Counted from the stretch's first letter, positions 41,813-42,974 are shown. The stretch is 48,479 bases of DNA from a bacterium (GCA_030648795.1 JAUSHC010000002.1:1-48479); one strand, 5' to 3'. A program made the numbers and translations. Notes: generated by a model not told the origin, from the letters alone.

Positions 41813-42233
41813 TATGTTCTCCTCATTTCGTGGAAAACGAGTAACGGTGATGGGGCTCGGGTTGCATGGCGGGGGCGTTTCCGTTGCCGTTTGGTTGTTA
41901 AAACATGGGGCGCGAGTGACCGTGACTGATCTTAAAACAAAAAAAGAGCTTGCTGGGTCATTAAGGAACTTCTCGACAAGCTCGAAGAATATTACTTTTG
42001 TTTTTGAAAAGCACCGGAAGCAGGATTTTATTGATACCGACATGGTGGTGCGGAATCCCGCGGTGCCGGTGGAGTCGCCGTTTTTGAAGATTGCAGAGCA
42101 GCACGGAGTGCCAATTGAAAATGAGGCAACGCTTTTTTTTAAATATTGTAAATCGAAAAATATCATTGGAGTAACCGGCACGCGCGGTAAATCAACGACG
42201 TCGGCGATGATTGCTGCGATTTTGCGCGAAAAA

Positions 42234-42247
42234 CTTACAACTTACAA
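42234..42247 (+). repeat. Perfect tandem duplication CTTACAA x2 causing the murD frameshift
   Basis: Read directly from the sequence. Deleting one unit restores ...REKLTTRVWFAGNIRTTPMLSIVDK... Confidence 0.95.
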
Positions 42248-42974
42248 CTCGTGTGTGGTTTGCGGGGAATATTCGTACGACGCCGATGCTTTCGATTGTA
42301 GATAAGATAAAGCCCGAGGATTGGGTGGTGCTTGAGTTGTCGTCGTGGCAATTGGAAGATATGGATCGGCAAAAAATTTCTCCGCATATTGCGGTCGTGA
42401 CGAATGTTTTGCAAGACCATTTGAATCGCTACACGGGAATGCGTCCCTACGCGCGGGCAAAAGAGAGTATTGTGCTCTATCAGAAGAAAGGGGATGTCGC
42501 GGTGCTGAATAAAGAAAATGCGTGGACGAGAGCAATGGCGAAGAAAACGAAGGCGAAAGTGTATTTTTCTTCAAACCGCAGAGGTCGGACCTCGACGGTA
42601 CAGAGGTCCGACCTCAACATATTAGGTGAACATAATATTCAAAACGCGCAGGCGGCGGCGACGGTTGCGCGAGCGATTGGGATTTCAGCGAAGACGATTA
42701 TTGGTGCATTAAAAAAATTTCGCGGGCTTCCTGATCGTCTGGAATATATTCGCACTGTGCACGGGGTGCGCTATTATAATGATACGACGGCAACGACACC
42801 GGATGCGACAGTCGCAGCTCTCAAAACCTTATCGCATCAAGAGCCACGCATTATTTTGATTGCTGGCGGGTCGGATAAAAAATTAGATTACAAATCCCTC
42901 ATGCCGTGGATAAAAAAGACGTGTAAGGCGGTTGTTTTTTTACCGGGGGCAGCAACGGATAAAATAAAAAAGTT

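What the first reader, a model, noticed from the sequence alone, without database searches (positions are those of the whole stretch)
42211..42305. Essential murD is broken by a perfect 7-nt tandem duplication (CTTACAA x2)
The murD N-terminal frame (GTRGKSTTSAMIAAILREKLTT) runs into a stop at 42303-42305. The rest of MurD (VWFAGNIRTTPMLSIVDK...LLSPAAASF) continues in another frame. The switch point is exactly CTTACAA CTTACAA at 42234-42247. Removing one unit yields an uninterrupted ...REKLTTRVWFAGNIRTT... MurD. A 7-nt unit changes the frame with each gain or loss, which is the behaviour of a slipped-strand contingency switch. Alternatively this is an assembly or consensus error, or a minority allele fixed in the assembly.
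Basis: seen in the sequence. Interest (0 to 1): 0.65.

Follow-up and report, generated by a model that had tools for sequence, protein, structure and literature searches.

The report
Heptamer microsatellite frameshift in murD
The cell-wall gene murD of this uncultured Uhrbacteria-like bacterium is knocked out of frame by a 7-base repeat tract; such tracts fill the surface loops of MurD in its relatives, so this is most likely one slipped copy-number variant and not a genetic switch.

Summary
CTTACAA occurs twice at 42234-42247, inside an 18-nt period-7 tract at 42232-42249. The murD frame switches exactly there. The upstream frame stops at TAA 42303-42305. Deleting one unit gives a 463-aa MurD (TIGR01087, 370 bits).

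The tract is not a duplication of native codons. It is a heptanucleotide simple-sequence repeat (SSR).
- The four closest relatives have 7-8-nt tandem tracts in this same loop. All are in frame, with about 4-4.7 copies.
- They also have tracts in about five other MurD loops.
- The identical 18-mer sits at a different murD site in the closest relative.
- Perfect period-7 tracts are far more frequent in the relatives than in shuffles (7 against 0.01).

Frame is restored by removing one unit (6-aa loop, as in distant homologs). It is also restored by adding two units (13-aa loop, as in the closest relatives).

Everything else looks healthy. 69 of 71 highly conserved MurD columns are kept. mraY, ftsW, murG and murC are intact. 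No other gene in the 48 kb looks broken.

Best reading: one slipped-strand copy-number change, present in the sequenced DNA and recent. A contingency switch is not supported (2.6 copies, essential gene, orthologous tracts in frame). Programmed frameshifting is not supported either. No same-species sequence or reads were available, so the allele frequency is unknown.

The parts
41814..42305 (+). murD 5' part in frame 0: N-terminal domain, P-loop GTRGKSTT and its helix, then 20 out-of-frame codons and a premature TAA at 42303-42305
   Evidence: ORF and translation. TIGR01087 profile positions 1-132 matched by residues 9-143.
42232..42249 (+). Heptanucleotide tract (AACTTAC) x 2.57, containing the two CTTACAA units at 42234-42247. 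This is the frameshift site. It lies in the turn between the P-loop helix and the next strand.
   Evidence: the identical 18-mer is in L001 murD at 7779-7796; the AlphaFold2 model has helix 126-140 and strand 145-149.
42250..43212 (+). murD 3' part in frame +1, open from 42211. It covers the rest of the central domain and the C-terminal domain, with the stop at 43210-43212.
   Evidence: profile positions 131-440; all highly conserved columns downstream of the shift are retained.
42577..42618 (+). In-frame 22-nt direct repeat that is also a perfect 13-bp inverted repeat (GAGGTCGGACCTC / GAGGTCCGACCTC). It sits in the MurD loop where relatives carry heptamer tracts (site C).
   Evidence: (repeat families D3 and I6); no other copy found.
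42975..43002 (+). In-frame heptamer tract (TGTCAGY, read as AGCTGTCAGTTGTC x 2) encoding VSCQLSVV. It is orthologous to (GTCAGTT) x 4.3 in L001.
43099..43137 (+). Window-specific 39-nt in-frame insertion (ARPPKSASGRRRR) between the conserved AASF and GLFQHEFDRG motifs of the C-terminal domain
   Evidence: absent from all 12 aligned homologs; pLDDT below 50; coordinates.
43190..43217 (+). (AATCCCT) x 4. It encodes the last six MurD codons and the stop, and ends 5 nt before the ftsW ATG at 43223.
44305..44331 (+). Octamer tract (ACACAAGA) x 3.4 that abuts the ATG of the four-helix-bundle gene
45766..45806 (+). Heptamer tract (TTCTCAA/AATTCCT, period 7/14) at the murG 3' end, abutting the ATG of the GT2 gene at 45807. 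L001 and L002 have ATTCATC-type tracts at the orthologous position.
37575..37676 (.). Degenerate heptamer arrays: TCGTGAA-like x 9.6, then GTTACACNCTTCAC x 2. They overlap the start of the pilin-like ORF (36272-37606, minus strand) and fill the gap to pilC.

Best explanation
The murD frame is broken by an out-of-frame copy-number state of a heptanucleotide simple-sequence repeat.

The tract codes for a surface turn of MurD, between the P-loop helix and the next beta-strand. In this Uhrbacteria-like lineage that turn, and about five other MurD loops, are occupied by tandem 7-8-nt repeats. Selection normally holds these repeats at in-frame lengths.

One slipped-strand mispairing event during replication or repair produced the 2.57-copy, 18-nt state. 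The event was either a gain of one CTTACAA unit on a 1.57-copy tract or a loss of two units from a 4.57-copy tract. The result shifts the frame by +1 and ends translation 18 codons later.

The allele is inferred to be real in the sequenced DNA, recent and inactivating. It is probably a lineage-specific or within-population variant caught by the assembly. It is not a regulated ON/OFF device.

Shown: the tract, the frame geometry, both unit-wise repairs, the lineage-wide repeat habit and the absence of gene decay. Inferred: the slippage event, its direction, and that the allele is real and not compensated.
For: Geometry and repair:
- Searches give the tract, the two frames and both unit-wise repairs.
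- the repaired protein is MurD (370 bits against a cut-off of 212).

Same loop in the relatives:
- L001 has AATCACAA x 3.9, L002 has TCAAAAAA x 4.4, L003 has GAATCAA x 4.7 and L004 has ACGTTTC x 4.1. All are in frame.
- Spacer between the I-L and R-V-W codons: 36, 36, 39 and 39 nt in the relatives, 25 nt in the window. Removing 7 nt gives 18 nt. Adding 14 nt gives 39 nt.

Lineage-wide heptamer habit:
- Perfect period-7 tracts against shuffles: L001 7 against 0.01, L002 7 against 0.02, L003 5 against 0.00, L004 2 against 0.02. There is no such excess for periods 5, 6 or 9-12.
- The identical 18-mer lies at a different murD site in L001, and CTTACAA x 4.4 occurs in L001 and L003.
- In other candidate-phyla-radiation (CPR) genomes CTTACAA tracts sit in frame inside UvrC, LeuRS, IleRS, enolase and PrmC, encoding LTTYNLQLTT. 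That is the peptide the +2-unit repair would create.

Recent lesion, not decay:
- 69 of 71 columns that are at least 95% conserved are retained. Relatives deviate at 0-10 of them.
- The AlphaFold2 model is confident (pLDDT 84, pTM 0.81), and the site is a helix-strand turn.
- MraY and MurC score above their NCBIfam cut-offs. FtsW and MurG score just below theirs (336.1 against 337.5; 222.8 against 250.25) but match nearly the whole profile.

Against an assembly artefact:
- No other gene checked in the window looks interrupted.
- Two 28-nt heptamer tracts in the same gene are assembled.
- An 18-nt tract is shorter than usual assembly k-mers, so the contig sequence must occur in reads (inference).

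Literature: heptanucleotide repeats are the most abundant long simple-sequence-repeat class in many prokaryotes, which has been attributed to polymerase slippage (Mrazek 2007, as summarised in PMC4679880 and PMC4692102).
Against: - No reads and no second assembly of this species were available, so neither the reality of the allele nor its frequency could be tested.
- A lethal allele should not dominate a population. If this is the majority allele, something must compensate for it, or murD is dispensable here, and neither could be shown.
- Slippage on only 1.6-2.6 copies is expected to be rare.
- Orthologous tracts have the same length in two species each (L002 and L003 at site C; L001 and L003 at site A). 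These tracts are therefore not obviously hypermutable.
- The window-only 13-aa insertion sits next to residues that bind D-Glu in E. coli MurD (my own knowledge of the structure). It could be a second sign of relaxed constraint.
Confidence: 0.55

Rival explanations
1. Artefact. The organism carries an in-frame tract of 1 or 4 units. The 2-unit state arose in library amplification (PCR or MDA slippage), in consensus polishing, or because the assembler took a rare or chimeric path through mixed strain alleles.
For: - It is the only broken gene in a window that is otherwise intact.
- The coding sequence downstream shows no decay.
- An essential gene with a single lesion is the classic signature of an error.
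- Tandem repeats are known trouble spots for assemblies.
Against: - A 7-nt indel is not a typical short-read error.
- The 18-nt tract is shorter than usual k-mers, so it cannot result from de Bruijn collapse of a 32-nt tract (inference).
- Longer tracts of 28 nt in the same gene were assembled.
- There are no other indel-type breaks, such as a noisy long-read assembly would leave.
Confidence: 0.25
2. Contingency locus. The tract is a phase-variation switch that reversibly turns MurD, and so peptidoglycan synthesis, OFF and ON within the population.
For: - A heptamer unit shifts the frame with every single-unit change, as in neuO, where expression needs a repeat number divisible by 3 (PMC13001214).
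- The gene is otherwise undamaged, so reversion would restore function.
- Heptamer tracts are a habit of this lineage.
Against: - There are only 2.57 copies, whereas neuO tracts have 3-53 repeats and most often 20 (PMC13001214).
- murD is an essential single-step housekeeping enzyme and not a surface or restriction-modification gene.
- About 50 in-ORF heptamer tracts were examined in relatives and other genomes. All are in frame except this one.
- Orthologous tracts keep identical lengths between species.
Confidence: 0.06
3. Programmed +1 ribosomal frameshifting. Peptidyl-tRNA-Leu slips from CUU (42234-42236) onto UUA, as at the yeast Ty1 CUU-AGG-C site. This would give ...REKLQLTTRVWF... and a full-length MurD from the 2-unit allele.
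For: - CUU-A is in the zero frame at the start of the tract.
- A slip there yields an uninterrupted MurD.
- The Ty1 precedent for CUU to UUA re-pairing is from my own knowledge.
Against: - The next codon, ACA, is neither a stop nor an evidently rare codon.
- There is no SD-like stimulator upstream (sequence).
- There is no downstream structure (z = +0.34).
- No ortholog needs a frameshift here, so the feature is not conserved.
Confidence: 0.04
4. True pseudogene. MurD function has been lost for good, because a second murD exists elsewhere or the organism is giving up de novo muropeptide synthesis.
For: - A frameshift is present together with a window-specific 13-aa insertion next to the D-Glu-binding region.
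- CPR bacteria are reduced, host-dependent organisms (general knowledge).
Against: - There is only one disabling lesion.
- 69 of 71 conserved columns are kept, no worse than in intact relatives.
- mraY, ftsW, murG and murC next door are intact.
- There is no second murD in the 48 kb.
Confidence: 0.1

Closest known systems
neuO heptanucleotide repeat (5'-AAGACTC-3') of E. coli K1 phage CUS-3
   Same: It is a tandem heptanucleotide repeat inside a coding sequence. Strand slippage changes the copy number, and the protein is full length only in one of three copy-number classes (PMC13001214).
   Different: neuO carries 3-53 repeats, most often 20. Roughly two thirds of genomes are OFF, and the gene is a non-essential surface-modification gene with measured switching. 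Here there are 2.6 copies in an essential ligase, and the tracts in relatives are uniformly in frame.
Genome-specific heptamer direct repeats: TAACTGA in Beggiatoaceae, Cyanobacteria and Bacteroidetes; STRR heptamers in Calothrix and Nostoc; GGGAATC in Xanthomonas; GGGGATT in Nostoc
   Same: - Short arrays (2-6 copies) of a 7-nt unit occur at many sites in a genome.
- Many abut start codons or overlap stop codons. One TAACTGA array lies at the very end of MurG (PMC4679880; PMC4692102).
- The window shows the same pattern at 43190-43217, 44305-44331 and 45766-45806.
- CAACTTA and CAACTGA here differ from TAACTGA by one or two bases.
   Different: The described repeats are mostly intergenic. Internal, in-frame occupation of several loops of one essential enzyme has not been described for them. 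Several different units coexist here.
Long simple-sequence repeats in prokaryotes (Mrazek et al. 2007, as summarised in PMC4679880 and PMC4692102)
   Same: Heptanucleotide units are the most over-represented class, which is attributed to polymerase slippage.
   Different: That survey found that units whose length is a multiple of three predominate inside genes. Here 7-nt units sit inside genes and only the total length is held in frame.
Tandem repeats in Borg elements that create disordered regions in proteins
   Same: Perfect nucleotide tandem repeats lie inside ORFs. They add or replace loop-like, disordered peptide segments under selection to keep the frame (PMC9879509).
   Different: All Borg in-ORF repeat units are divisible by three, so copy-number change never shifts the frame. 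Borg repeat proteins are mostly extracellular or membrane proteins and not core enzymes.
Programmed +1 frameshift sites (prfB CUU-UGA-C; yeast Ty1 CUU-AGG-C)
   Same: A zero-frame CUU followed by A allows Leu-tRNA to re-pair in the +1 frame.
   Different: There is no stop or hungry codon, no stimulator and no conservation in orthologs.

Membership tests
MurD, UDP-N-acetylmuramoyl-L-alanine--D-glutamate ligase (TIGR01087) | Equivalog HMM score above the curated cut-off over the full length | tested here: met
   the repaired protein scores 370.3 bits against a cut-off of 211.95, covering profile positions 1-440 of 441. As found, the gene is split into positions 1-132 and 131-440.
MurD, UDP-N-acetylmuramoyl-L-alanine--D-glutamate ligase (TIGR01087) | Three-domain Mur ligase architecture with the P-loop GxxGK(S/T) and conserved catalytic columns | tested here: met
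   homologs carry PF21799, PF08245 and PF02875; 69 of 71 columns that are at least 95% conserved are retained; matches solved MurD structures (3LK7, 2JFF); confident fold.
MurD, UDP-N-acetylmuramoyl-L-alanine--D-glutamate ligase (TIGR01087) | Position in the cell-division/cell-wall gene cluster between mraY and ftsW | tested here: met
   the order is mraY-murD-ftsW-(4HB)-murG-GT2-murC; the same order in L001-L004.
Repeat-mediated contingency (phase-variable) locus | A repeat whose unit length is not a multiple of 3 lies in the ORF, so copy-number change switches the frame | tested here: met
   1 and 4 units are in frame, 2 and 3 units are out of frame.
Repeat-mediated contingency (phase-variable) locus | The tract is long enough for high-frequency slippage | tested here: not met
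   2.57 copies, against 3-53 and typically about 20 in neuO (PMC13001214).
Repeat-mediated contingency (phase-variable) locus | Copy-number polymorphism within or between populations, with both ON and OFF states found | not testable with these tools
   No reads and no same-species sequence. Indirect evidence points the other way: tracts in relatives are all in frame, and two are the same length in two species each.
Repeat-mediated contingency (phase-variable) locus | The target is a dispensable surface, restriction-modification or host-interaction gene | tested here: not met
   The target is MurD, a housekeeping cytoplasmic ligase.
Programmed +1 ribosomal frameshift (prfB or Ty1 type) | Slippery P-site codon followed by a stop or slowly decoded A-site codon | tested here: inconclusive
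   CUU-A is present at 42234-42237, but the A-site codon is ACA. tRNA abundance is unknown, and the window has no tRNA genes.
Programmed +1 ribosomal frameshift (prfB or Ty1 type) | Stimulatory element (upstream SD-like sequence or downstream structure) and conservation of the shift in orthologs | tested here: not met
   z = +0.34. The upstream sequence GCGCGAAAAA is not SD-like. All orthologs are in a single frame.
Dispersed heptanucleotide repeat arrays (long simple-sequence repeats, STRR or TAACTGA type) | Tandem 7-nt units over-represented relative to other periods and to shuffled sequence | tested here: met
   strong in L001-L004 (2-7 observed against at most 0.02 expected), weaker in the window (2 against 0.11); further imperfect tracts.
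Dispersed heptanucleotide repeat arrays (long simple-sequence repeats, STRR or TAACTGA type) | The same unit recurs at several loci in a genome, often abutting start or stop codons | tested here: met
   AATTTCC at 4 sites in L002 and 2 sites in L003; CTTACAA at 3 sites in L001; tracts abut the ftsW, 4HB and GT2 start codons in the window.
Decaying pseudogene | Several disabling lesions, loss of conserved residues, decay of pathway partners | tested here: not met
   There is one frameshift only; no excess loss of conserved residues; the neighbouring genes are intact.

The most novel reading that the evidence does not exclude
In this CPR lineage heptanucleotide repeats may be more than passive slippage debris. 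They may be actively spread or homogenised within genomes, and they overwrite the surface loops of essential enzymes. MurD carries up to seven tracts. UvrC, aminoacyl-tRNA synthetases and enolase in other CPR genomes carry the same LTTYNLQLTT-coding tract. Some loops keep their length while their sequence is replaced by repeat-coded peptide.

Under this reading, out-of-frame intermediates such as the 2-unit murD allele are tolerated long enough to be sampled, through low-level +1 slippage at CUU-A or rapid reversion. Essential genes would then carry a built-in, unusually high frameshift load or switchability.
Probability: 0.12. Interest if true: 0.75.

Novelty: new variant of a known kind. Interest (0 to 1): 0.4.

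Why it matters
The frameshift alone matters little. It is one slipped repeat unit in one metagenome-derived genome. It mainly warns annotators that this murD should be read as 'frameshifted at a simple-sequence repeat' and not as pathway loss.

The context is more interesting. The closest relatives keep four to seven 7-8-nt tandem tracts inside an essential enzyme, at conserved loops. The units differ between species but recur within a genome. Repeats inside genes are expected to have units of 3n bases, yet here 7-nt units persist and only the total length is constrained.

If this is general in CPR bacteria, three things follow:
- It is a source of rapid loop evolution in core proteins.
- It is a recurrent cause of apparent pseudogenes in genome bins.
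- It offers a natural system for measuring slippage rates and frame selection in organisms that cannot be cultured.

Tried and rejected
- **Same-species alleles.** Exact-protein look-ups of the N-terminal fragment and of MraY found nothing. Pattern scans allowing 1-5 units with exact flanks found nothing in the genome or metagenome collections. The best protein relatives are 70% identical. A metagenome search for related loci gave only loci at 56% identity or less. Allele frequencies therefore stayed untestable.
- **Programmed frameshifting.** No downstream structure, no stimulator and no conservation. Rejected as unsupported.
- **Transcriptional slippage.** The only homopolymer nearby is A5. 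Rejected from the sequence.
- **Functional two-piece MurD.** The +1 frame has only TTG at 42211, with no evident ribosome-binding site, and ATG at 42286. Starting at 42286 would delete the invariant AGN strand. Judged implausible.
- **CTTACAA as a special, sequence-specific element.** More than 120 loci across phyla in the species-representative genome collection looked striking. However, composition-matched control heptamers were as common or more common in viral contigs: CTTACAA 10 loci, CATTCAA 41 and CTATCAA 15. The unit itself is not exceptional.
- **Other frameshifted tracts.** Two candidates turned out to be non-coding or intergenic (L026, L133).
- **Mobile-element origin of the in-frame inserts.** No further copies of the 39-nt insert or of the palindromic insert were found.
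- **Other broken genes.** The ComEC split into Competence and Lactamase_B ORFs is shared with L001, so it is not an error.
- **RNA genes.** Rfam and tRNA scans of the window found nothing.
- **Literature.** Searches for the repeat or its peptide found nothing.

Full report
**1. Observation**

- CTTACAA lies at 42234-42240 and again at 42241-42247.
- The perfect period-7 identity runs over 42232-42249 (AACTTACAACTTACAACT, 18 nt, 2.57 copies). Tandem Repeats Finder lists the same tract.
- The ORF 41814-42305 encodes the MurD N-terminal domain and the P-loop (GTRGKSTTSAMIAAILREKLTT). It then runs through 20 unrelated codons to TAA at 42303-42305.
- The +1 frame is open from 42211. From R at 42250 it encodes the rest of MurD, up to the stop at 43210-43212.
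- Removing one unit gives a 463-aa protein. It scores 370 bits on the NCBIfam MurD equivalog TIGR01087 (cut-off 212). The two fragments match profile positions 1-132 and 131-440, so they abut exactly at the tract.

**2. The organism and the gene**

- The best homologs are 67-70% identical over the best local alignment. Those that carry a name are from Candidatus Uhrbacteria or Patescibacteria.
- The gene order mraY-murD-ftsW-murG-GT2-murC is shared with four relatives whose DNA I fetched, L001-L004.
- The rest of the window holds a polysaccharide-synthesis cluster, ComEC, a response regulator, NDK and type IV pilus genes. None of these ORFs looks interrupted, and those with Pfam matches show near-complete domain coverage.
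- MurC is a true MurC (440 bits, cut-off 335). MraY, FtsW and MurG are full length.
- murD is the only broken gene in about 45, which argues for an accurate assembly.

**3. The repeat is not a duplication of native codons**

In the protein alignment the frameshift falls in a loop of variable length. Distant homologs have 4-6 residues there. The seven closest relatives have 12-14.

The DNA of that loop in the relatives is itself a short tandem repeat:

| Locus | Unit | Copies |
|---|---|---|
| L001 | AATCACAA | 3.9 |
| L002 | TCAAAAAA | 4.4 |
| L003 | GAATCAA | 4.7 |
| L004 | ACGTTTC | 4.1 |

All four are in frame.

The same holds at about five further positions of murD and at the murG 3' end. 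L003 murD alone carries six or seven heptamer tracts.

Perfect period-7 tracts of at least 17 nt, observed against dinucleotide shuffles:

| Locus | Observed | Shuffle mean |
|---|---|---|
| L001 | 7 | 0.01 |
| L002 | 7 | 0.02 |
| L003 | 5 | 0.00 |
| L004 | 2 | 0.02 |
| window | 2 | 0.11 |

There is no such excess for periods 5, 6 or 9-12.

Units differ between species at a given site, but they recur within a genome:
- AATTTCC lies at four sites in L002, including two pilus genes and two murD loops.
- CTTACAA lies at three murD sites in L001.
- The exact 18-mer of the window's frameshift tract lies at a different murD loop in L001 (7779-7796), where it is in frame.

The window's tract is therefore one member of a lineage-wide set of heptanucleotide simple-sequence repeats.

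**4. Wider distribution**

At least 120 loci in many phyla matched, where about 0.3 would be expected by chance.
- Most of these tracts are intergenic. 29 of 150 lie inside long open frames, several of them in Patescibacteria genomes.
- There they encode ...LTTYNLQLTT... inside UvrC, LeuRS, IleRS, enolase and PrmC.
- A control tempers this. Composition-matched, stop-free heptamers are as common or more common in viral contigs: 41 and 15 loci, against 10 for CTTACAA. The unit is not special. Heptamer arrays in general are favoured.
- This fits the literature. Heptanucleotide units are the most over-represented long simple-sequence repeats in many prokaryotes, which has been ascribed to polymerase slippage. 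Genome-specific heptamers are also known: TAACTGA, the STRR repeats, GGGAATC and GGGGATT. Many abut start codons, and one lies at the end of MurG (PMC4679880, PMC4692102).
- The window shows the same habit. (AATCCCT)4 supplies the murD stop and ends 5 nt before the ftsW ATG. Other tracts abut the ATGs of the four-helix-bundle gene and of the GT2 gene.

**5. Two unit-wise repairs**

- Between the conserved I-L and R-V-W codons the window has 25 nt.
- Removing 7 nt gives 18 nt, a 6-aa loop (REKLTT) like that of distant homologs.
- Adding 14 nt gives 39 nt, a 13-aa loop (REKLTTYNLQLTT). L003 and L004 have exactly this spacing, and L001 and L002 have 36 nt.
- The event could therefore have been a gain of one unit or a loss of two.
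- The window lineage also lacks the long loop that its relatives have at another site (site D). Neither direction can be preferred firmly.

**6. State of the gene**

- The repaired protein keeps 69 of 71 columns that are at least 95% conserved among 119 homologs. Intact relatives deviate at 0-10 of these columns.
- An AlphaFold2 model is confident (pLDDT 84, pTM 0.81). It places the frameshift in the turn between helix 126-140 and strand 145-149.
- All the repeat sites lie between secondary-structure elements in that model.
- The frameshift is the only disabling lesion. It is therefore recent, or unreal, or compensated.
- One oddity is a 13-aa in-frame insertion found only in the window (43099-43137). 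It lies between AASF and GLFQHEFDRG and is predicted to be disordered.

**7. Mechanism and rivals**

- **Slipped-strand mispairing** at the heptamer tract is the simplest cause.
- **Contingency switch: not supported.** The tract has 2.6 copies, against 3-53 (typically about 20) in the known heptanucleotide switch neuO (PMC13001214). The target is an essential ligase. About 50 other in-ORF heptamer tracts that I examined are all in frame. Two orthologous tracts have the same length in two species each.
- **Programmed +1 frameshifting: no support.** A slip at CUU-A would give an intact protein. But there is no stimulator, no downstream structure (z = +0.34) and no conservation in orthologs.
- **Assembly collapse: unlikely.** An 18-nt tract is shorter than usual k-mers, and 28-nt tracts in the same gene are assembled. 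Amplification slippage, or a minority or chimeric path, cannot be excluded.
- **Untested.** No reads and no second assembly of this species exist in any collection I could search. The key test, counting alleles, could not be run.

**8. Verdict**

My best estimate of what the allele is:

| Reading | Probability |
|---|---|
| Real, recent, inactivating slippage allele of a heptanucleotide repeat in a MurD surface loop | about 0.55 |
| Artefact | about 0.25 |
| True pseudogene | about 0.10 |
| Phase variation | about 0.06 |
| Programmed recoding | about 0.04 |

The frameshift itself is ordinary. The habit of keeping several 7-nt repeat tracts inside an essential enzyme is the more notable point. 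It is a new variant of a known kind of repeat.

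Noticed in passing
L001 6984-8446; L002 10151-11434; L003 47-1110; L004 3676-4576; window 42232-43217: MurD of the closest Uhrbacteria-like relatives carries 4-7 tandem 7-8-nt tracts, typically 4.3-4.7 copies (30-33 nt), at about six positionally conserved loops. Units differ between species and recur within a genome. At some loops (sites A, C and E) the tract replaces native sequence without changing loop length. Some tracts are reverse complements of others, for example GAATCAA and ATTCTTG in L003, and ACAACTG and GTCAGTT in L001.
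   Followed up: partly
L013 6393-6422; L046 851-882; L047 5628-5652; L052 6818-6851; L051 4027-4054; L055 3461-3490; L089 2909-2935: (CTTACAA)n tracts lie in frame inside housekeeping genes of other Patescibacteria and a few other bacteria: UvrC, LeuRS, IleRS, enolase, PrmC and ValRS. They encode ...LTTYNLQLTT.... No paper containing this peptide or this repeat was found.
   Followed up: partly
window 43190-43217, 44305-44331, 45766-45806; L001 6984-7017, 9596-9631, 10640-10681; L002 13542-13568: Intergenic 7-8-nt tracts directly abut, or even contain, the start codons of ftsW, the four-helix-bundle gene, GT2, murD and murG, in the place where a ribosome-binding site would sit. In L001 (AAATGTC) x 4.9 offers an ATG every 7 nt, and the last one is the murD start. 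This resembles the TAACTGA arrays upstream of start codons in Beggiatoaceae (PMC4679880).
   Followed up: partly
window 43099-43137: A 39-nt in-frame insertion (ARPPKSASGRRRR), unique to this genome, splits the conserved AASF | GLFQHEFDRG region of the MurD C-terminal domain. It contains a GTCTGC...GCAGAC stem and is predicted to be disordered. No other copy was found in the window or in the fetched loci.
   Followed up: partly
window 42577-42618: In-frame element CAGAGGTCGGACCTCGAC-GGTA-CAGAGGTCCGACCTCAAC. It is a 22-nt direct repeat whose cores are also a perfect 13-bp inverted repeat. It occupies the MurD loop where relatives carry heptamer tracts.
   Followed up: partly
window 25544-27034 and 26962-27864; L001 2-1447 and 1399-2277: ComEC is encoded as two overlapping ORFs in different frames: DUF4131 plus the Competence domain, then the metallo-beta-lactamase domain. 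The arrangement is the same in the window and in the closest relative. It is a conserved split or a conserved recoding site, not an error.
   Followed up: no
window 44331-44702: A four-helix-bundle protein gene (TIGR02436, the family of 23S rRNA intervening-sequence proteins, with weak similarity to the DGR protein Avd) is inserted between ftsW and murG. It is absent at this position from L001-L004.
   Followed up: no
window 37575-37676: About 100 nt of degenerate heptamer arrays: TCGTGAA-like x 9.6, then GTTACACNCTTCAC x 2. They overlap the 5' end of the pilin-like ORF 36272-37606 (minus strand) and fill the spacer to pilC. The unit is related to the ACGTTTC tract in the MurD loop of L004.
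   Followed up: no
window 30710-31288; L001 4817-5404: Nucleoside diphosphate kinase is unusually long (192-195 aa). In the window its Pfam match is split into two stretches, which suggests an internal insertion. The L001 copy was not scanned for this.
   Followed up: no
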